In this document: in pieces, positions 24,445 to 36,931 of the stretch | Position numbering within the stretch: position 1 is the stretch's first letter | How the letters are laid out: each line of letters starts with the position of its first letter | DNA from: an uncultured Gammaproteobacteria bacterium | Lineage (GTDB): Bacteria > Patescibacteriota > Patescibacteriia > SBBC01 > CAIJZX01 | Assembly: GCA_964397195.1 (NCBI GenBank) | Contig: CAYNGY010000001.1 | Span: 6,586-70,585 of the forward strand | Direction: 5' to 3' | Length of the DNA stretch: 64,000 nt | Made by a program: the position numbers and the translations under genes | The notes under the pieces: generated by a model | Databases searched by the model: none | Told to the model about the DNA's origin: nothing | What the model saw: only the letters and a program-made list of their open reading frames with translations

Positions 24445-25664
24445 TGCTGCAAGCCGCCCAAAACGCCTTTCGATCAATCTGGACGAAAAAAACCCGCTCG
24501 TTCCTGACCATGCTCGGCGTCATCATCGGCGTTGCCCAGATTATCGCTCTCATCGGATTAGGTCAGGGTGTCAAACAATCCGTGTCGGATGAAGTCACAC
24601 AGTTAGGAACGAATGTGCTGTTTGTCTTGCCCGGAAAGCTACAGGACGCCAATGGAGGTTTTAATCCTAGTGCGTCAGTTGGTGCCTCGACGCTCACCGA
24701 AGATGACTTGGCGCTCTTAAAAACGCGCCCGGAAATTACGACCATTACGCCAATCGCCTTATTGGCCGGTACACCCGCGGTTGGTGAAACGGCGGCGCTA
24801 GGAACGATGACGGTCGCGGTTGAGCCCGATTACTTTGCGGTCATGACCACGGCCGAGTTAGTCGCCGGGCGTCTCTTCACCGCCGCGGAAAATACCGCTA
24901 AGGATCGAGTCATCCTGCTCGGAAAACAACCGAAGACGGCATTGTTCCCAACGTCCACGAATGCCGAGGTTATCGGTAAAACGGTCACCATCGGCAAGGT
25001 GGCATTTACCGTTATCGGCGTGCTCGAAACGCCGCAATCAACGTCAGCCTTCGGTGGCAATTCTTTCGACAACATGGTCTTTATGCCGTACCTGACCGGG
25101 AAAGATGTAAATGAGAATACGCAAATCTTCCGGATGGTCATGAAGATAGATCCGAGTCTGAATGCGAAAGATGAGGCGAATACCATCACGGCACTGTTGA
25201 AAGCGCAACATGGGGCCGACGACTTTACGGTTTTTACTCAAGACGATCTGCTCAGCGTTGTCGACGATATTCTCGGATTAATTACCACCGCGATTGTCGG
25301 CCTCGCCTCGATCTCCCTGATCGTCGGCGGGATCGGAATTATGAACATCATGCTCGTGGCCGTCTCCGAGCGAACGAAAGAAATTGGCCTTCGGAAAGCC
25401 CTCGGCGCAACGCGGGCAAACATCCTCCTCCAATTTATTACTGAGTCGGCGTTCATTTCCTTGATTGGTGGGGCAATTGGTGTTGGTATTGTGGCGGCGA
25501 TCGGACCGATTGTTGAAGCGAAATCAGGACTTCCAATCGTCATCAACCTCCAGTCAGTGCTGATGGCCACGAGCTTCTCACTCGGCGTCGGTGTCCTGTT
25601 CGGACTTCTACCGGCCATCCGCGCCGCCCGTAAAGATCCGATCGAGGCGCTGCGCTACGAATAA
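24441..25664 (+). CDS. ABC transporter permease, FtsX/MacB type
   Basis: N-terminal TM, large periplasmic domain, C-terminal FtsX-like 3-TM bundle. Overlaps the ATPase gene by 4 nt. Confidence 0.8.
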   Translation: MMLQAAQNAFRSIWTKKTRSFLTMLGVIIGVAQIIALIGLGQGVKQSVSDEVTQLGTNVLFVLPGKLQDANGGFNPSASVGASTLTEDDLALLKTRPEITTITPIALLAGTPAVGETAALGTMTVAVEPDYFAVMTTAELVAGRLFTAAENTAKDRVILLGKQPKTALFPTSTNAEVIGKTVTIGKVAFTVIGVLETPQSTSAFGGNSFDNMVFMPYLTGKDVNENTQIFRMVMKIDPSLNAKDEANTITALLKAQHGADDFTVFTQDDLLSVVDDILGLITTAIVGLASISLIVGGIGIMNIMLVAVSERTKEIGLRKALGATRANILLQFITESAFISLIGGAIGVGIVAAIGPIVEAKSGLPIVINLQSVLMATSFSLGVGVLFGLLPAIRAARKDPIEALRYE

Positions 25665-25667
25665 TCA

Positions 25668-25704
25668 ACAATAAAATTCACCCCAACGGTTTCCCGTCGG
25701 GGTG
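25668..25704 (-). terminator. Intrinsic terminator of the RT gene
   Basis: On the minus strand, accccgacgg-GAAA-ccgttggggt 10-bp stem followed by gaattttattgtt. Confidence 0.6.
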
Positions 25705-25726
25705 GGTAGTGTCGTTGCGACACTGG

Positions 25727-26749
25727 CTAGCGCCGCTGGACGTGGGTGCGGTAGCTCGCATAGAGCTCGAGGAGCTTCTTTTCCGTAGCATTCTGGCCGA
25801 CATGACCGACTCCATGGATATAGGGCAGTGTTCCGAGGAACACGCCCATCTTGCCATGGACGACTTCCGGGCGAATGTTCGGGTCGCGCTGTGCGGCATG
25901 CAGCAGTCCGCGCAGTTTCCGAACGTACCAACGTGGTAGGAAGACGCGGCCGTGACGATCGAGGGAGATGCCGTTGATCGTAATCGGTCCGCGGTAGAGG
26001 TCGACGACCTGCGCCTTGCGGTGACTGATCTGGAACCCCGCCGTGGCGATGGTCGCGCGTATCTCGCGCCGGACTTGGTCCGTAATTCGTGCATGTCTCG
26101 AGGAGAACGTCAGGTCGTCGAGGTAGCGCGTGTACGTCAGCTCATGCTGCGTGCAGATCGTCGCCAGCTGGCGATCGAGGACCGTGGCCGCGTAGATGTT
26201 GAACAGGTCGGGCGACGACGGACTTCCCTGGACGAGCCCACGTGATCCGCGCCGGATCGGTGTGGGCGGCGCGATGGCCAGCGTTTGCTGTCGCGCGTGG
26301 CCGATCCGATAGCTCGAACCGGACACGAAGCAGTACTTCTTGAGAAACGCGTGCACGGTCTCGACGGTATCCGGTTTCGGATCGAGGCCACACAGCACGA
26401 AGGCCAAGAGTTCGTCGTCGACGTGTCCATAGGCATCGACGATGTCGAGTAGGTAGAAGTGGCGGTTGGCAAGGTAGATACCGCGCCCCTTCTGTCGCGC
26501 CGGGTACCGATGCCGCCGGACGTTATTGAGCGGCGAGCCATTCGGCCGCGCGCCAACCGCATGCGGCATCTCGACCGGCAGGGCGCGCAGTGCGCGGACA
26601 AACCGCTGGTGCAGTAGCAACATGGCCGGGTTCGGCGCCCCAATCTGGCGGTACTTCGTCGTTCCCGTCAGCGGGTTCGTGTCACGGTACCGGAAGCGCT
26701 GAAACAACGGCACTCCCGGCAGGTCGGCTAGGAATTGGTCAAAGTGCAT
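25727..26749 (-). CDS. Reverse transcriptase, retron-type (about 340 aa). The ORF track extends to 26938; the start with GGAGGA SD is at 26749.
   Basis: RT motif 1 YPARQKGRG, motif 2 YLLDIVDAYGHV, motif 4 LVQGSPSSPDLFNIYA, motif 5 RYLDDLTFSS (YxDD followed by LTFS as in retron RTs), thumb region ITINGISL. SD GGAGGA 6 nt before ATG 26749. Confidence 0.8.
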   Translation of the reverse strand: MHFDQFLADLPGVPLFQRFRYRDTNPLTGTTKYRQIGAPNPAMLLLHQRFVRALRALPVEMPHAVGARPNGSPLNNVRRHRYPARQKGRGIYLANRHFYLLDIVDAYGHVDDELLAFVLCGLDPKPDTVETVHAFLKKYCFVSGSSYRIGHARQQTLAIAPPTPIRRGSRGLVQGSPSSPDLFNIYAATVLDRQLATICTQHELTYTRYLDDLTFSSRHARITDQVRREIRATIATAGFQISHRKAQVVDLYRGPITINGISLDRHGRVFLPRWYVRKLRGLLHAAQRDPNIRPEVVHGKMGVFLGTLPYIHGVGHVGQNATEKKLLELYASYRTHVQRR

Positions 26750-26831
26750 GACGGTTCCTCCGATGTCAGGAGTTACGGGGTCGGGGAAACAGCGCCCCCA
26801 CCCTAGCAGAATGGAGAGAAAGCGCAAATCA

Positions 26832-26890
26832 TAAAAAAGACCCCAGATGTGATCCAGGGTTGCCCGTGATGGGCGGTACGAAGGTGCGGC
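26832..26890 (-). repeat. Module-terminal hairpin element, copy 1 (degenerate)
   Basis: aaaaagaccccagatgtgatccagggttgcccgtgatgggcgg is about 90% identical to copy 2 over 45 nt, but its stem is weakened. Confidence 0.5.
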
Positions 26891-27282
26891 AATCTCTGTC
26901 AGCGCTAGCCTGGGGGCGATCGCCTGAACAGACGCCAATGTTTCCGCTGAGGTTCGCGACGACCACCACGAGTCGTGTGGATACGACCGCAGGGAGGCGA
27001 ACCGGATCTAAACAGACCCAGATCAAGGAGTCGCCAGTTTGTAACGGGCAACGTCCTGCCCCGCAACGTGTGTCACGGGGGTTGTGTTCCATGGGTGGTG
27101 CTACATGCCTCATCGGACGTCTTGCCGATGTGCAGGATCACTCCCCCAGGCCTCTCCTTGTGGGCGCACCTCAAGAGGTAAAACACTCGATCAGAGCGTG
27201 ACAAGGAGCGCGAGGCCCAGCGACGGACCACGCCAGCAATGTATAGCCTTGCTCGGCCCTCGTCAATTCGGCGACCTGTGGG

Positions 27283-27345
27283 AAAAAAAGACCCCGGATG
27301 TGATCCAGGGGTGCCCGTGATGGGCGGGTGCAAATGTGGTGGCCG
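27283..27345 (-). repeat. Module-terminal hairpin element, copy 2
   Basis: aaaaaagaccccggatgtgatccaggggtgcccgtgatgggcgggtgcaaatgtgg. On the minus strand the hairpin is followed by tcttttttt. Confidence 0.5.
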
Positions 27346-27860
27346 CTGAAGTCAGCGGCGACATCCGGGGGTGTCCGCTCGGGAGACGACAGGCCGGTAC
27401 CGCTGAGGTCTGGCTGCGAATGTTGAGAAACGAGAACCAGGCGAATACCTGCGCGATCGGAGAAACCGACCAGGCCGGTACGCGCTCGCACCCACCAGGA
27501 ATCCCGTGCCGGAATCGAACACGCGAACGGACTCGCGTGTGACAACGGGCCCAGGACGGGCGTGGCTCGCGAATGCTCAACCGGATGCGACGCGCACACG
27601 AACTGCCGAAAAAATGCGCGTGCAGCCCCGACCGAGGAGAGGCCGGTCAGCAAACGAGACCGAAATGGGGTGGCTAGTACTGTCACCAACCCCGCATCAA
27701 CGACGTGCGTCATTGATGGTGTACTGCCCTCAGTGGTGCTTGAAGGTGCCCGAGTAACGTTCCCCCGGATATACCGCCCGATGCAGGCGCGGTGTCGCCA
27801 TGGGCCTATCGGCACTCTATCGGTTGCCCTCTGGCGTGTCAAACAAGATAGGAGTGGGCA

Positions 27861-27920
27861 ACCAAAAACAAAAAGACTCCCCGGCGGCGGTCCGTCGGGG
27901 GTACAAATGTGGCGCTCAGC
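27861..27920 (-). repeat. Module-terminal hairpin element, copy 3
   Basis: aaaaagactccccggcggcggtccgtcgggggtacaaatgtgg. Shares the gtRcaaatgtgg tail and the downstream agacgacRggcSggtac and ctgagg blocks with copy 2. Confidence 0.5.
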
Positions 27921-28180
27921 AGCGTTGCGGGTCCAGAGACGACGGCGGGGTACTTCAGCCCACCTCCTGAGGACTCGACGTACGAAAGAGAAAGGACGAC
28001 GAGCCCGAGATGGAATGGCTGTGACCAGCCACTCCGACGCGACAACGTGAGTTGTCGGCGTTGGGTGTTGCCTGTGCAGATCCTCAGCGGCTCCGGTGTC
28101 TTTCCCTGGACCCTCCCGCTCATCTGAGCGGTGCAACGCCGATTGGGCTACCCCGAGTCTACGGTCTCCTTCGGCGAGTG

Positions 28181-28208
28181 TCAAAAACACCCCGGATGGT
28201 CCGGGGTG
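28181..28208 (-). terminator. Intrinsic terminator of the 4-Cys membrane protein gene (same hairpin family)
   Basis: caccccgg-atggt-ccggggtg 8-bp stem followed by ttttt on the minus strand. Confidence 0.6.
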
Positions 28209-28223
28209 TTTCGTGAAGCGAGC

Positions 28224-28691
28224 TTAGACCGTCGGTGTTGAGGCCATCGGTGGCATGACCGCCGGTGTTTTTTTCCGCCACGTTTGAAACGTCGGGATCC
28301 ATGCGGCAATATAGAAGATCAGTCCATAAACGCAGGCCGGCATCGTTCCAGCGGCCAGTGCTTTCAAGACCACGATTTCATAGAACGCCAAGAACCCGGA
28401 GAACAAGACGCCGATGGTCGTGACGATAAGCGTCGCGAGGACGATGCGCTTCGCCTCGGTCTTGACCCAGGCGATCATGACGAGGATCATGGTCAACAGG
28501 AACATGAAAAAACCATAGATGCAGGTCGGTTGGCCGATGATGAGCACCTTTGTATTTCCAACGCCGCAAGACAAGAAAGCCTTCTTACAGCCTTCACCGA
28601 AATAATTCTGATAGCTCAGGTAGCCGGACATGAGGGTGCCGAGCATGGCGCTGACGAGGACCACGCGTTTGGCGGCGGACGAGAAGTTCAT
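28224..28691 (-). CDS. Four-TM membrane protein with four conserved Cys (VKOR/DsbB-like partner of DsbA?)
   Basis: Start MNFSSAAKR. Cys in GEGCKKAFLSCGVG, GQPTCIYG and MPACVYG across 4 TM helices. Two genes upstream of a DsbA-like gene. Family uncertain. Confidence 0.45.
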   Translation of the reverse strand: MNFSSAAKRVVLVSAMLGTLMSGYLSYQNYFGEGCKKAFLSCGVGNTKVLIIGQPTCIYGFFMFLLTMILVMIAWVKTEAKRIVLATLIVTTIGVLFSGFLAFYEIVVLKALAAGTMPACVYGLIFYIAAWIPTFQTWRKKTPAVMPPMASTPTV

Positions 28692-28702
28692 ACGGGTAAC
28701 GG

Positions 28703-29602
28703 TTAGGAGTGAATCGAGTGGGTAAGTGAGGAGAATGTTCGCGCCGCCGGAGCCTGATGGAAGATCTCTTGCAGTGCGTGGATGCATTCAAGCGCCGAGA
28801 GACTCGGGAAACGCTGAATGAGGAGGGCGAATGAACGGACAGATTCAGCTGATTGATCGATGGTGCCCTGGGCTAATTGTACGCCGGCATTGCGGTTTCG
28901 TGAATGGGGGCTGCCGCCGGTGCCGTGAAAGTCGTCGATACCGGCCGGACCGATGATCACCTCGCGCTCGATACCGCAACGGTCAGCGGCGACGACCATC
29001 TCATTCTCACAGCGCTTCCATAAGTCGCTCAGTGCAATTGGTGACCACCCCAATCCAACGCCCAAGCCGTAGACAAGCGCGTAAACGTTTTTCAATACGC
29101 CGGCCAAGGAGACGTCAACCGGATGGGCGCTCTCCATAAACGACATCGCTTCCGGTGGGACAATAGATTCGAGGGTTCGTCGAATCTGTCGGCCGGGACC
29201 GGCGATGACGCCATGGCCGCGTGCGCCCGAGCGAATATCTTCGGCCACCATCGGTCCGCCAATCACCACCCACGGCTGTCTCGTGCCGAGTGTTTCCGCG
29301 GCAATTTCCGCGGCGCACTGGAGCGTATGTTCCTCGAGACCTTTACTAAAGAAGACAAAGGTCGACTGCGGCGTCGCTAAGGGCTGGACATCGGCCAGGG
29401 CTTTTCGGATAGCGTCCGTCGGCACCGCGAATAAAACGAGATCTGCGTTGGGCACACCGGCACTCAGGAGGGTCACCCCGGGCGTAATCCCCGGCTGAGC
29501 GTCCCAGAGCCCAACGGTCGACTGATGACCACGCCCAAACACGTGCGCGAAGGCGCGTCCGAGCCGTCCCGCGCCAATAATGACAATTCGTGTCTGAGCC
29601 AT
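28703..29602 (-). CDS. gpsA: NAD(P)H-dependent glycerol-3-phosphate dehydrogenase
   Basis: IIGAGRLGRAFA Rossmann motif and VLKNVYALVYGLGVGLGWSPIA...LSDLWKRCENEM, which matches the GpsA C-terminal domain. Confidence 0.7.
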   Translation of the reverse strand: MAQTRIVIIGAGRLGRAFAHVFGRGHQSTVGLWDAQPGITPGVTLLSAGVPNADLVLFAVPTDAIRKALADVQPLATPQSTFVFFSKGLEEHTLQCAAEIAAETLGTRQPWVVIGGPMVAEDIRSGARGHGVIAGPGRQIRRTLESIVPPEAMSFMESAHPVDVSLAGVLKNVYALVYGLGVGLGWSPIALSDLWKRCENEMVVAADRCGIEREVIIGPAGIDDFHGTGGSPHSRNRNAGVQLAQGTIDQSAESVRSFALLIQRFPSLSALECIHALQEIFHQAPAARTFSSLTHSIHS

Positions 29603-29606
29603 GGGT

Positions 29607-30251
29607 TTATTTAGCGGCGGCCTGGACGGCCGACACCAGTTCGTCCTTGGTAAATGGAGTATTCAGTTGAACACCATTAATATAGACCGTCGGGGTCCCG
29701 GCGAGGCGAATTTGATTCCCGGTCGCCACGTCTCGCTCAATACGATCTTTGACGCCCGAGCTATTCAGGTCATCGGCAAAGGTCTTTTCGTTGAGGCCGA
29801 GCTCTTTAGCGTATGATTTTAAGGTTACCTGGACATCACCGGCGGTCGACCAGGTGGACTGCCGTTCAAACAGGATATTATGCATCTCCCAGAACTTCCC
29901 CTGGTTACTCGCCGCTTCCGAAGCCTGCGCCGCGATCTGCGCATTCGGATGCGCCTGGCGCAACGGGTAATGTCGATAGACAAAACGGGCCTGATTCCCG
30001 AGCGCTGATTCGGCGTCCTTCAGAATCGGATAGTAGTACCCGCACGCCGGACATTGAAAGTCGCTGTATTCAACGACGGTCACCGGGGCGGTCGCTTCGC
30101 CTAGGATATGATCCGTGTCAGTAATCGTCAGGGCCGCCGTCGTGGTTTCGCTTGATGGGCTGCTACCAAGATTGGCCAGGAGAACAATGAGTCCGATCGT
30201 GCCGATGATACCGCCGACCCACCAGAGGAGTGAACGTGTTTGAGCATTCAT
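29607..30251 (-). CDS. DsbA-like thiol:disulfide oxidoreductase (thioredoxin fold, membrane anchored)
   Basis: N-terminal TM and CPAC active site in FQCPACGYYYP. Confidence 0.75.
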   Translation of the reverse strand: MNAQTRSLLWWVGGIIGTIGLIVLLANLGSSPSSETTTAALTITDTDHILGEATAPVTVVEYSDFQCPACGYYYPILKDAESALGNQARFVYRHYPLRQAHPNAQIAAQASEAASNQGKFWEMHNILFERQSTWSTAGDVQVTLKSYAKELGLNEKTFADDLNSSGVKDRIERDVATGNQIRLAGTPTVYINGVQLNTPFTKDELVSAVQAAAK

Positions 30252-36306: not shown

Positions 36307-36383
36307 GGGCGGATAGCTCAGCTGGTCAGAGCAGCCGTCTTATACACGGCCGGTCCATGGTTCGAATCCATGTCCGCCCACCA
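36307..36383 (+). tRNA. tRNA-Ile, anticodon UAU (AUA-decoding)
   Basis: Manual cloverleaf: acceptor gggcgga/tccgccc, D-arm gctc..gagc, anticodon stem gccgt/acggc with loop cTTATAc, T-arm catgg-ttcgaat-ccatg, encoded CCA. Confidence 0.75.
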
Positions 36384-36403: not shown

Positions 36404-36931
36404 TTGTCCAAACCTATGGATTTACTCCTTACCCTGAATCCAGAACACGTCACCGAACAGGAAGGTAACACGTACGCAACTCGTGGAGCGGCCCGTGCCG
36501 TTGTTTTAGATACCGATAACAATATCGCGTTACTCCACGTAGTAAATGAAAAGTATTATAAACTCCCCGGCGGCGGTCTCGAGAGCCAAGAAGATCCTAT
36601 CACAGCCCTGCGACGTGAGTGCCTCGAAGAGATTGGCGCTGATATTGATGTAGTGGGTGAGGTTGGTTTGATTGTGGAGTATCGCAAGTTTGAGCAACTC
36701 AAGCAAACGTCGTACTGTTATTTGGCCCGTCTCAAGGGTGAGAAAGGACGTCCGACTTTCACAGAAACAGAAATGGCGGGCGGTTTTCAGGCGGAGTGGG
36801 TTCCCCTCGCCGAAGCGCGCCGGTTGTTTGATGAACGCCTAGCGACCTCCCTTGAAGGCAGTGCGTATATCGTAAAGCGGGACATCAGATTTCTAGAAGA
36901 GGCTGAAAAGCAAATCAAAAAAATCGTCTAG
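36404..36931 (+). CDS. NUDIX hydrolase
   Basis: Nudix box GGGLESQEDPITALRRECLEEIG. Confidence 0.8.
   Translation: MSKPMDLLLTLNPEHVTEQEGNTYATRGAARAVVLDTDNNIALLHVVNEKYYKLPGGGLESQEDPITALRRECLEEIGADIDVVGEVGLIVEYRKFEQLKQTSYCYLARLKGEKGRPTFTETEMAGGFQAEWVPLAEARRLFDERLATSLEGSAYIVKRDIRFLEEAEKQIKKIV

What the first reader, a model, noticed from the sequence alone, without database searches (positions are those of the whole stretch)
26832..28208. Upstream region is three diverged tandem copies of a 450-580-nt module, each ending in the same hairpin plus U-tract element
Elements at 26832-26890, 27283-27345 and 27861-27920 share the pattern AAAAAGAC(C/T)CCCGG...hairpin...GGGGT(G/A)CAAATGTGG on the plus strand. 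On the RT strand this reads hairpin plus UCUUUUU, i.e. terminator-like. Downstream of each element the homology continues with conserved blocks: gtcagcg, AGACGAC(A/G)GGC(C/G)GGTAC, CTGAGG, aacgggc and tgtgcag(g)atc. Unit spacing is 451, 583 and 308 nt. A fourth copy of the same hairpin family (28181-28208) is the true terminator of the upstream membrane-protein gene. The RT-proximal copy is degenerate (weakened stem), so it would permit read-through into the RT, and no separate promoter is visible in the 83 nt between it and the RT SD. Tandem paralogous structured modules feeding into an RT resemble neither a single msr-msd nor a DGR TR/VR pair: differences between copies are not adenine-specific. 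Direct repeats bounding a template are, however, what a template-jumping or rolling-circle RT would need.
Basis: seen in the sequence. Interest (0 to 1): 0.8.

Follow-up and report, generated by a model that had tools for sequence, protein, structure and literature searches.

The report
Tandem RNA genes serving reverse transcriptase
Just upstream of a retron-like reverse transcriptase lie three separately transcribed, diverged copies of an uncatalogued structured RNA that accompanies this enzyme family throughout the tiny 'CPR' bacteria, so one enzyme probably works with several partner or template RNAs.

Summary
The repeats are real, with corrections. The 1.47-kb gap upstream of the reverse transcriptase (RT, minus strand 26749-25727) holds three tandem units on the RT strand. 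Each has its own sigma-70-like promoter, a structured RNA of about 285, 525 or 400 nt, and an intrinsic terminator.

The units are paralogues of one RNA family that is absent from Rfam. All share:
- a covarying long-range 5'/3' helix (P1);
- two covarying hairpins (Ha, Hb);
- a pyrimidine-rich tract;
- a conserved box, ACCUCAGCGG, that can pair either with an upstream UGAGG motif or with a downstream CCGCUGA box.

A covariance model of the RNA found it next to the RT, always on the RT strand, in dozens of independent Patescibacteria/CPR loci. Most have one copy. The window's subclade has two to four.

The RT's closest solved relatives are retron RTs, but there is no effector gene, no defence island and no phage context.

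Best reading: a retron-related RT with a lineage-specific array of cognate, probably template, RNAs. Templating itself is inferred. The 339-aa ORF called here in a public assembly is spurious.

The parts
25727..26749 (-). Reverse transcriptase gene, 340 aa, retron clade, YLDD active site. Shine-Dalgarno GGAGGA at 26756-26761.
   Evidence: Pfam RVT_1 2.8e-15. The family profile's best PDB matches are retron Ec83 (5e-35) and Ec86 (9e-34) RTs. Translation.
26750..26832 (-). RT leader. It contains no module. A weak promoter-like TTGCGC (26822-26827), 16 nt, TAGGGT (26800-26805) is present.
   Evidence: Sequence reading. No R1 or R2 hit here.
26833..27266 (-). Module C (RT-proximal): promoter, ~400-nt RNA, terminator.
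   Evidence: Promoter TTGACG-17-TACATT at 27266-27238 and terminator at 26860-26840. R1 hit 26894-26963, E 9e-7. R2 hit 26990-27098, E 0.04.
27143..27152 (-). Module C, P1 5' strand, GGCCUGGGGG. It pairs with 26907-26916 (CCCCCAGGCU).
26944..26953 (-). Module C box 1, ACCUCAGCGG. Box 2 (GCGCUGA) is at 26899-26905 and the 5' motif (GAUGAGGCAU) at 27105-27114.
27027..27080 (-). Module C hairpins Ha (27059-27080) and Hb (27027-27056).
27283..27842 (-). Module B (middle): promoter, ~525-nt RNA with a ~220-nt expansion of the variable region, terminator.
   Evidence: Promoter TTGACA-17-TAGAGT at 27842-27814 and terminator at 27310-27292. R1 hit 27347-27419, E 5e-8. R2 hit 27643-27736, E 7e-12.
27762..27772 (-). 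Module B, P1 5' strand, AUAUCCGGGGG. It pairs with 27361-27371 (CCCCCGGAUGU). An outer helix P0 joins 27794-27799 (GGCGAC) to GUCGCC, which overlaps the start of box 2.
27400..27409 (-). Module B box 1, ACCUCAGCGG. Box 2 (CCGCUGA) is at 27352-27358, the 5' motif (ACUGAGGGCA) at 27725-27734 and the linker GUCGUCU at 27384-27390.
27667..27718 (-). Module B hairpins Ha (27695-27718) and Hb (27667-27693).
27864..28184 (-). Module A (RT-distal): promoter, ~285-nt RNA, terminator.
   Evidence: Promoter TTGACA-17-TAGACT at 28184-28156. Terminator hairpin within 27864-27900, -14.7 kcal/mol. R1 hit 27911-27983, E 9e-4. R2 hit 27982-28077, E 8e-12.
28103..28113 (-). Module A, P1 5' strand, GGGUCCAGGGA. 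It pairs with 27929-27939 (UCUCUGGACCC). The outer helix P0 joins 28133-28139 to 27922-27928.
27963..27973 (-). Module A box 1 variant, UCCUCAGGAGG. The box-2-like UGCUGAGCG is at 27913-27921 and the 5' motif (GCUGAGGAUC) at 28079-28088.
28012..28057 (-). Module A hairpins Ha (28040-28057) and Hb (28012-28035), followed by the AUCUCGGG/pyrimidine tract at 27983-28011.
27326..27339 (-). 3'-tail motif CCACAUUUGCACCC, just before the terminator of module B. A second copy, CCACAUUUGUACCC, lies at 27899-27912 in module A. L002 has a related UUUGCAUAGCC.
28185..28211 (-). Terminator of the upstream VKOR-like gene, a 12-bp perfect hairpin (-20 kcal/mol). Its U-tract overlaps the -35 box of module A.

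Best explanation
The interval 26833-28184 is an array of three paralogous genes for a previously uncatalogued structured non-coding RNA. This RNA is the cognate partner of a retron-clade reverse transcriptase family found across Patescibacteria/CPR.

Shown:
- Each copy has its own strong sigma-70-like promoter and intrinsic terminator.
- Each RNA folds into a closed rod. The 5' segment pairs with the segment just before box 2 (helix P1, with a different sequence in every copy).
- The rod is capped by a conserved core: hairpins Ha and Hb, an AUCGGGUCU-like stretch and a pyrimidine tract.
- Box 1 (ACCUCAGCGG) can pair with an upstream UGAGG motif or with box 2 (CCGCUGA). The two pairings share three nucleotides, so they are alternatives.
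- The RNA travels with the RT gene, on the same strand, either upstream or downstream of it.

Inferred:
- The RT binds the conserved core.
- The RT uses part of each RNA as a template, as retron RTs use msr-msd RNA.
- Because the recognition elements are shared while P1, the linker and the variable stems differ, one RT would make several different cDNA or RNP species.
- The array arose by DNA-level tandem duplication, because each repeat unit includes a promoter and a terminator.

The biological role is not determined. It could be defence or a housekeeping function.
For: RT identity:
- Pfam RVT_1.
- The best PADLOC and NCBIfam hits are retron RTs.
- The family profile against PDB gives retron Ec83 5e-35 and Ec86 9e-34 over almost the full length. 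GsI-IIC scores 1e-10 and Drt2 5e-8.

Transcription units:
- Three promoters sit at the module starts, each just after the preceding terminator. The scan found 5 promoter-like sites against 1.2 +/- 0.7 in shuffles.
- The same terminator-then-promoter junction occurs in L011 and L012.

Structure:
- In an alignment-free test, the 16 nt before box 2 bind their own upstream region at a mean of -24.4 kcal/mol. Non-cognate pairs give -15.9 +/- 3.0. The cognate partner is best in 11 of 13 modules, at a consistent position.
- For Ha and Hb in 47 modules, 91.4% of cells are paired against 66.2% in shuffles. There are 190 double-change cells against 53.5. The covariation score is 0.80, against 0.29 for shuffles and 0.09-0.19 for slid partners.
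- P2 (UGAGG:CCUCA) is 92.7% paired and box1:box2 is 89.1% paired. Both show compensatory changes. Examples are L018 UCAACA/UGUUGA, L011 proximal UUAGCG/CGCUAA and L006_a UGAGA/UCUCA.

Linkage to the RT:
- Model R2 hits lie beside the RT in the genome loci. Of the 29 hits with E<0.1, 28 are on the RT strand.
- All 36 hits at E<0.05 in 70 independent metagenome loci are on the RT strand.
- In the window, only the three modules are hit at significant E-values.

Copy number is 2-4 in the window's subclade: WIN 3, L002 3 plus a partial copy, and L006, L007, L011 and L012 with 2 each.

The region is non-coding. ORF339 shows no codon periodicity, has no Pfam hit and is not conserved in the related loci.
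Against: - No cDNA, RNA-seq or binding data exist, so templating is an analogy from RT homology.
- No conserved unpaired G follows the P1 5' strand. The G in box 1 is A in L018, where it is compensated in box 2. A retron-type branching G is therefore not identified.
- The retron RT signature VTG is replaced by ING, and NAXXH by NVxxH.
- There is no effector gene. This is unusual, since retrons are described as tripartite systems with associated effector proteins (PMC7736814).
- The alignment behind the P2 and box-helix counts was hand-curated.
- Promoters and terminators are consensus matches only.
Confidence: 0.62

Rival explanations
1. A DRT2-, DRT9- or DRT10-like system. The RT would copy a short template in the RNA repeatedly, by rolling-circle synthesis or template jumping, to make concatemeric or repetitive DNA.
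For: - The system is two-component, RT plus ncRNA, with no protein effector. DRT2 is likewise described as an RT plus an essential ncRNA (abstracts of PMC12596737 and PMC12039810).
- The DRT2 ncRNA is described as pseudoknotted (abstract of PMC12039810).
- The P1 and box1:box2 helices are in pseudoknot topology.
- Short direct repeats (UGAGG and CCGCUGA) flank the core, and both are complementary to box 1.
- A pyrimidine tract is conserved.
Against: - The RT is far closer to retron RTs (5e-35) than to Drt2 (5e-8) or Drt3a. The NCBIfam Drt2 score is 35 bits against a cut-off of 390.
- The distance from the 5' motif to box 2 shows no multiple-of-3 bias: 0,0,1,2,2,2,1,0,0,1,1,1. A never-ending ORF is therefore not supported.
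Confidence: 0.12
2. The RNA is a non-templating partner. It could be an RT-binding scaffold or decoy, or a cis-regulatory leader whose box-1 switch controls RT translation. Extra copies would then titrate the RT.
For: - In single-copy and proximal modules, box 2 lies 20-30 nt before the RT start codon (L006b, L007b, L012, L017).
- Two mutually exclusive pairings of box 1 resemble a riboregulatory switch.
Against: - Many modules are downstream of the RT: L009, L015, L024, L032, L082, L087 and the second L012 copy.
- Others are separated from the RT by a terminator and have their own promoter. These include the three window modules and the distal modules of L011 and L007. Neither group can regulate RT translation in cis.
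- All characterised relatives of this RT clade use their ncRNA as a template (established knowledge, PMC7736814).
Confidence: 0.18
3. The repeats are generic intergenic repeats (REP-like or terminator elements), or decaying duplications with no function.
For: - The terminator hairpins of B, C and the upstream gene share a 16-nt core (family D2).
- Module C's core scores weakly with R2 (E 0.04).
Against: - No further significant copies exist in the 64-kb window.
- Structure is maintained by compensatory changes between paralogues and across more than 40 loci.
- Linkage to the RT and to its strand is strict.
Confidence: 0.03
4. The region encodes a protein, the 339-aa ORF at 28190-27171 that a public gene caller annotated. 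Alternatively, it is a DGR template region.
For: - An ORF of 339 aa was called on the Logan contig.
- DGRs are the commonest RT type in CPR (PMC8632793).
Against: ORF:
- GC by codon position is 0.65/0.60/0.60, against 0.67/0.44/0.78 for the RT.
- It has no Pfam hit and no tblastn hit in the related loci.
- It runs across terminator-promoter junctions.

DGR:
- No variable-repeat-like copy of any module exists elsewhere in the window.
- RT motif 4 is QGSPSSP, not the (I/V/L)GxxxSQ motif of DGR RTs (with my own knowledge of the DGR motif).
- No conserved accessory gene is present.
Confidence: 0.02

Closest known systems
Retrons (msr-msd ncRNA plus retron RT)
   Same: - The RT is most similar to retron RTs over nearly its whole length.
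- The ncRNA is encoded next to the RT on the same strand. In the simplest loci it is co-transcribed just upstream of the RT.
- The 5' and 3' parts of the RNA pair through a sequence-variable, covarying helix like a1/a2.
- One to three conserved hairpins are followed by a variable stem-loop region. This matches the general msr/msd layout described in PMC7736814.
   Different: - No effector gene and no defence-island context.
- No identifiable branching-G context.
- VTG is replaced by ING, and NAXXH by NVxxH.
- Conserved box1/box2/UGAGG alternative pairings in pseudoknot topology.
- The RNA can lie downstream of the RT.
- Up to 3-4 independently transcribed ncRNA genes per RT.
- No hit to any Rfam family.
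DRT2 (UG2 RT plus pseudoknotted ncRNA, rolling-circle cDNA)
   Same: A two-component RT plus structured ncRNA locus without a protein effector, with a pseudoknot-type topology.
   Different: - The RT family is different (Drt2 model 35 bits against a cut-off of 390).
- There is no evidence for an open frame across a repeat junction.
- There are several ncRNA genes per RT.
Engineered retron arrays ('multitrons', PMC10370050)
   Same: One RT is served by several ncRNA cassettes in tandem.
   Different: Those are synthetic constructs. Here the array is natural, each unit has its own promoter and terminator, and the units have diverged. My literature searches found no natural counterpart.
Diversity-generating retroelements, the dominant RT type in CPR
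   Same: An RT with an adjacent non-coding template-like region in CPR genomes.
   Different: There is no variable repeat, no adenine-specific pattern and no Avd-like accessory gene. The RT motifs are of the retron/group-II type.

Membership tests
Retron | RT belongs to the retron RT clade | tested here: met
   The family profile's best PDB hits are retron Ec83, Ec86, Ec78 and Ec67 RTs (5e-35 to 4e-24), ahead of group II (1e-10) and Drt2 (5e-8). However, scores fall below the curated NCBIfam retron cut-offs (75 bits against 235), and the PADLOC retron-type hits cover only part of the protein.
Retron | [quoted passage not shown] | tested here: not met
   The family alignment shows N76-V77-x-x-H80 (NVxxH) and I-N-G with an invariant G260 in place of VTG. 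These are related motifs, not the canonical ones.
Retron | ncRNA gene contiguous with the RT on the same strand | tested here: met
   R2 hits lie beside the RT on the RT strand in the genome and metagenome loci. Unlike classical retrons, the RNA is downstream of the RT in several clades.
Retron | Terminal inverted repeats a1/a2 that close the ncRNA | tested here: met
   Helix P1 is 9-14 bp, has a different sequence in each module, and its cognate partner is best in 11 of 13 modules.
Retron | Conserved branching G immediately 3' of a1 | tested here: inconclusive
   P1's 5' strand usually ends in a G run, but the next base is mostly A. The AGC-like G in box 1 is base-paired and is replaced by A in L018.
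Retron | Associated effector protein or domain (tripartite system) | tested here: not met
   No protein family other than the RT is shared across the 41 loci. Only housekeeping synteny is seen. The window neighbours are housekeeping genes.
Retron | Production of msDNA with a 2'-5' branch | not testable with these tools
   This needs cDNA or msDNA detection.
DRT2 (UG2) | RT matches the Drt2 family | tested here: not met
   NCBIfam Drt2 scores 35 bits against a cut-off of 390, on an 84-residue stretch only.
DRT2 (UG2) | Template whose concatemer carries a continuous ORF | tested here: not met
   Distances from the 5' motif to box 2 show no multiple-of-3 bias. The template boundaries were assumed.
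DGR | Template repeat with an adenine-mutated variable repeat in a target gene, plus an accessory Avd | tested here: not met
   No second copy of any module sequence exists in the window, and there is no conserved accessory gene.
Any Rfam 15 family | Covariance-model match | tested here: not met
   E-value scans (threshold 1) of 25000-29500 and of 8 related loci returned only chance-level, unrelated matches. A gathering-threshold scan of the whole window found only tRNAs.
REP / generic intergenic repeat | Many dispersed copies unlinked to one gene | tested here: not met
   Only the three copies occur in the 64-kb window. In the flanks of about 110 RT loci, all hits at E<0.01 lie beside the RT. 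The whole genome was not available.

The most novel reading that the evidence does not exclude
This is a natural multi-template reverse-transcription system. A single retron-clade RT, chromosomal, without an effector and apparently vertically inherited in CPR bacteria, services an array of independently transcribed RNAs. It makes several distinct cDNAs. Initiation is gated by a conserved box-1 switch (UGAGG:CCUCA against UCAGCGG:CCGCUGA), not by a classical retron branching-G context. Its biology would then differ from abortive-infection retrons and might be a housekeeping or symbiosis-related function.
Probability: 0.3. Interest if true: 0.85.

Novelty: new variant of a known kind. Interest (0 to 1): 0.7.

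Why it matters
RT-plus-ncRNA systems such as retrons and DRT2, DRT9 and DRT10 have each revealed an unexpected way of making DNA, and some have become genome-engineering tools.

This locus defines an uncharacterised branch of that kind:
- The RT family has about 160 clusters at 50% identity, essentially confined to CPR/Patescibacteria.
- Its cognate RNA is structured, 200-500 nt long and not in Rfam.
- It has no effector and sits among core genes.

The window's lineage has expanded the RNA gene into arrays. To my knowledge this has been built only synthetically ('multitrons'). If the RNAs are templates, this would be a natural precedent for one RT producing several programmed DNAs.

The RNA's covarying architecture gives concrete constructs for testing priming and template choice.

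Tried and rejected
- **Rfam.** E-value scans of the region and of 8 related loci, and a gathering scan of the window, found nothing relevant.
- **Protein coding.** ORF339 was rejected on codon-position GC, the lack of a Pfam hit and the lack of conservation.
- **DGR.** No variable-repeat-like copy in the window.
- **Conserved effector.** All-against-all blastp of flank ORFs in 41 loci found only housekeeping synteny.
- **Phage origin.** Only one weak relative was found in IMG/VR.
- **Box 1 as the retron branching-G context.** I considered this because box 1 resembles the Ec86 CCUUAGCGAG, which I recalled from memory. I rejected it because the G covaries as a base pair and is A in L018.
- **DRT2-like coding concatemer.** No length bias to multiples of 3.
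- **A regex hunt for hairpin Ha** was too strict to be useful. Model R2 replaced it.
- **Alignment A6**, made with model R1 at E<=10, contained antisense and chance hits and was not used for counts.
- **Literature.** Searches for CPR retron-like RTs or natural tandem retron ncRNAs found nothing. One possibly relevant 2026 preprint on ncRNA mining could not be opened.
- **Organism.** It could not be named.
Full report
**Layout of the locus**

- The RT gene runs on the minus strand from 26749 to 25727. It encodes 340 aa, has an ATG preceded by GGAGGA, and carries a YLDD active site.
- Upstream on the same strand is a VKOR-like membrane protein gene (28787-28224), ending in a perfect 12-bp terminator at 28211-28185.
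- The 1.47 kb in between has no credible coding capacity. A 339-aa ORF (28190-27171) was called on the public Logan copy of this contig, but three things count against it:
  - It shows no codon-position GC periodicity: 0.65/0.60/0.60, against 0.67/0.44/0.78 for the RT.
  - It has no Pfam hit and no counterpart in related loci.
  - It runs straight across terminator-promoter junctions.

**Checking the observation**

- The 44-nt elements at 26833-26876 and 27284-27327 are 95% identical. Such a match never appeared in shuffles.
- The third element (about 27864-27912) shares only the flanks: the A-run/GAC side and GGGTACAAATGTGG. Its hairpin has a different sequence.
- The CAAATGTGG motif is absent from the first element.
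They correspond to what I call box 2, the GUCGUCU linker and box 1.
On the RT strand each terminator is followed immediately by a strong sigma-70-like promoter:
  - TTGACA-17-TAGACT at 28184-28156;
  - TTGACA-17-TAGAGT at 27842-27814;
  - TTGACG-17-TACATT at 27266-27238.
  - The scan found 5 promoter-like sites where shuffles give 1.2 +/- 0.7.
- The region is therefore three promoter-to-terminator units. The RNAs would be about 285 nt (A), 525 nt (B) and 400 nt (C). These lengths are estimates that assume a start about 7 nt after the -10 box.
- The proximal terminator is only slightly weaker than its twin (-10.5 against -12.0 kcal/mol).
- A weak promoter-like TTGCGC-16-TAGGGT lies in the RT leader. 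This is my own reading of the sequence.

**The RT**

- Pfam sees only RVT_1.
- The best PADLOC and NCBIfam matches are retron RTs. All fall below the curated cut-offs or cover only part of the protein.
- A profile of 33 family members matches solved retron RTs best: Ec83 5e-35 and Ec86 9e-34, over nearly the full length. Group II intron RT scores 1e-10 and Drt2 5e-8.
- Retron RT signatures are present only as variants: NVxxH for NAXXH, and ING for VTG (the signatures are as stated in PMC7736814).
- The family has 98 clusters in the indexed search. An exhaustive search gives 163 clusters at 50% identity with E<=1e-30.
- Named members are Patescibacteria/CPR MAGs, including Kerfeldbacteria, Paceibacterota and Saccharibacteria.
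- Only one weak relative is found in viral contigs.

**Tandem modules recur in relatives**

- The closest long homologous locus (L002, identical to L005; Kerfeldbacteria; 49% RT identity) also has about 1 kb of non-coding DNA upstream of the RT.
- That stretch holds three modules with terminators. A partial fourth copy lies in the RT leader.
- The window and L002 modules share three features: a short hairpin (CGACRA-loop-UGUCG), the box ACCUCAGCG and a UUUGCA tail motif.
- Across 40 genome loci, low-GC members have 360-870 nt of non-coding DNA beside the RT.

**Architecture of the module**

Reading 5' to 3', each module contains:
1. the P1 5' strand;
2. a 25-45-nt segment;
3. a YUGAGG motif;
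4. an A-rich spacer;
5. hairpin Ha (9 bp);
6. hairpin Hb;
7. an AUCGGGUCU-like stretch and a pyrimidine tract;
8. a variable hairpin region, expanded by about 220 nt in module B;
9. box 1, ACCUCAGCGG;
10. a 10-25-nt linker, often containing GUCGUCU;
11. the P1 3' strand;
12. box 2, CCGCUGA;
13. then either a terminator or the RT ribosome-binding site.

**Evidence for helix P1**

- I took, without selection, the 16 nt directly 5' of box 2 and the stretch from -400 to -40 upstream of box 1.
- Cognate pairs bind at a mean of -24.4 kcal/mol. Non-cognate pairs give -15.9 +/- 3.0.
- The cognate partner is the best in 11 of 13 modules.
- It always lies 127-202 nt upstream of box 1, or 351 nt in the expanded module B.
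- The three window paralogues keep this helix with different sequences:
  - A: GGGUCCAGGGA / UCUCUGGACCC;
  - B: AUAUCCGGGGG / CCCCCGGAUGU;
  - C: GGCCUGGGGG / CCCCCAGGCU.

**Evidence for hairpins Ha and Hb**

- RNAalifold on 13 modules predicts both hairpins, and 10 of the 14 pairs show compensatory changes.
- I built model R2 from that alignment and aligned 47 modules to it. Counts on this alignment:

| Measure | Observed | Shuffled | Slid partners |
|---|---|---|---|
| Cells paired | 91.4% | 66.2% | 37.5-52.2% |
| Double-change cells | 190 | 53.5 | 6-48 |
| Covariation score | 0.80 | 0.29 | 0.09-0.19 |

- All 14 pairs covary.

**Evidence for the box-1 pairings**

- I made a hand-curated, ungapped alignment of 34 verified modules.
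- UGAGG:CCUCA (P2) is 92.7% paired. Compensatory variants include UGAGA/UCUCA in L006_a, UGAAG/CUUCA in the L028 and L082 group, and CGAG/CUCG in the L012 downstream copy.
- UCAGCGG:CCGCUGA is 89.1% paired. Variants include UCAACA/UGUUGA in L018, UUAGCG/CGCUAA in the L011 proximal copy..GCGA/UCGC.. in L002_M3 and L091, and ..AGCU/AGCU.. in L009.
- For both helices, no shuffle out of 500 reached the observed covariation score. The absolute signal is modest because the boxes are highly conserved, and the alignment is mine.
- The two helices share the three nucleotides UCA, so they are alternatives.
- Box1:box2 also crosses P1, which gives a pseudoknot topology.

**Linkage to the RT**

- In 40 genome loci plus the window, R2 hits lie directly beside the RT. 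Of the 29 hits with E<0.1, 28 are on the RT strand.
- They lie upstream in the window's clade and in L018, L022, L028 and L030. They lie downstream in L009, L015, L024 and L032.
- In 70 independently retrieved metagenome loci, all 36 hits with E<0.05 are on the RT strand, again immediately up- or downstream of the RT.
- In the 64-kb window only the three modules are hit at significant E-values:

| Module | R2 E-value | R1 E-value |
|---|---|---|
| A | 8e-12 | 9e-4 |
| B | 7e-12 | 5e-8 |
| C | 0.04 | 9e-7 |

- blastn finds no other significant copy in the window. The repeats are therefore not generic REP or terminator elements.
- Rfam 15 has no matching family.

**Copy number and origin**

- Most loci carry one module.
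- The window's subclade carries more: the window 3, L002 3 plus a partial copy, and L006, L007 and L011 2 each. L012 has 2, one of them downstream of the RT behind its own TTGACT-16-TAAAAT promoter.
- Paralogues within a locus resemble each other more than they resemble modules elsewhere. Examples are the Ha hairpins of L006 a/b, L012 u/d and L002 M1-M3.
- Each repeat unit includes a promoter and a terminator.
- From these two points I infer repeated, lineage-specific DNA-level tandem duplication, not retroposition.

**Genomic context**

- No protein other than the RT is shared across the loci. The only recurrent neighbours are an amino-acid permease and an acylphosphatase in one syntenic subclade.
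- The window neighbourhood is housekeeping: GyrA, ribosomal protein S1, YfhO, an ABC transporter, VKOR, a DsbA-like protein, GpsA and FtsH.
- This is not a defence island or a prophage.
- The RT-plus-RNA segment is richer in GC than its flanks (0.61-0.63 against about 0.55).

**Interpretation**

- *Shown:* the modules form a structured RNA family that co-occurs with, and lies on the same strand as, a retron-clade RT.
- *Inferred:* the RT binds the conserved core and reverse-transcribes part of the RNA. This follows from the fact that all characterised relatives of this RT clade template cDNA from an adjacent ncRNA closed by a terminal helix (PMC7736814).
- Under that mapping:
  - P1 corresponds to a1/a2;
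  - Ha and Hb correspond to the msr hairpins;
  - the variable stems, box 1 and the linker correspond to the msd side.
- Arguments against calling it a retron:
  - there is no identifiable branching G;
  - the RT signatures are variants;
  - there is no effector;
  - the RNA can be downstream of the RT;
  - the box-1 switch has no counterpart in classical retron ncRNA, to my knowledge.
- A DRT2-like repetitive synthesis remains possible but is not favoured.
- A purely regulatory role fails for modules that cannot act in cis.
- I therefore class this as a new variant of the RT-plus-ncRNA kind, nearest to retrons. Its unusual natural feature is an array of independently transcribed ncRNA genes for one RT.

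Noticed in passing
window 36307-36383 (+): A tRNA-Ile with anticodon UAU. To my knowledge this is uncommon in bacteria, which usually decode AUA with a lysidine-modified CAU tRNA. It is one of 10 tRNA genes in the window.
   Followed up: no
window 27876-27892 and 36562-36578: A 17-nt exact match (ACTCCCCGGCGGCGGTC) between the terminator hairpin of module A and a site inside an ORF 8.7 kb away. The short-blast E-value is 0.005. It is probably a chance match in GC-rich sequence.
   Followed up: no
window 26000-28000: The RT gene plus the RNA array has GC of 0.61-0.63, against about 0.55 in the flanks. RT GC3 is 0.78 against 0.62 for the neighbouring MacB-like gene. This could reflect horizontal acquisition or the demands of RNA structure.
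   Followed up: partly
window 27171-28190 (-); L001 274-1293: The public Logan assembly's gene call includes a 339-aa ORF spanning modules A and B. By codon periodicity and conservation it is spurious, so public protein sets contain a false protein here.
   Followed up: yes
L012 4963-5325: A complete second module lies downstream of the RT, with its own promoter (TTGACT-16-TAAAAT). Its box 1 carries A-to-G, which gives a G-U pair with box 2. Several clades (L009, L015, L024, L032, L082, L087) have their only module downstream of the RT.
   Followed up: partly
L009, L015, L016, L026, L027: These RT loci share neighbouring housekeeping genes: an amino-acid permease (PF03222) upstream and an acylphosphatase downstream. 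The loci come from differently named CPR lineages. This suggests long vertical inheritance, which is unusual for defence-type RT systems.
   Followed up: partly
L075, L082, L087, L032, L098 (5' flank of P1): In the subclade with box 1 = CCUUCAGCGG, a third copy of CCUUCAG sits just 5' of the P1 5' strand. It could pair with the UUGAAG motif or with part of box 2. It may be a further alternative pairing.
   Followed up: no
window 26862-26874 and 27313-27325 (-): Modules B and C share an almost identical 3' tail, made of a small hairpin (GCCCAUCACGGGC) and the terminator, although their bodies are only about 50% alike. This points to recent gene conversion or strong constraint on the tail.
   Followed up: no
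window 25679-25704: A strong hairpin (11 bp) lies between the convergent MacB-like gene and the RT gene. It probably serves as the terminator for both.
   Followed up: no
window 28224-28787 and 29607-30251 (-): A VKOR-like membrane protein and a DsbA-like thioredoxin-fold protein lie close together, separated by a GpsA-like gene. They may form a disulfide-bond formation pair.
   Followed up: no
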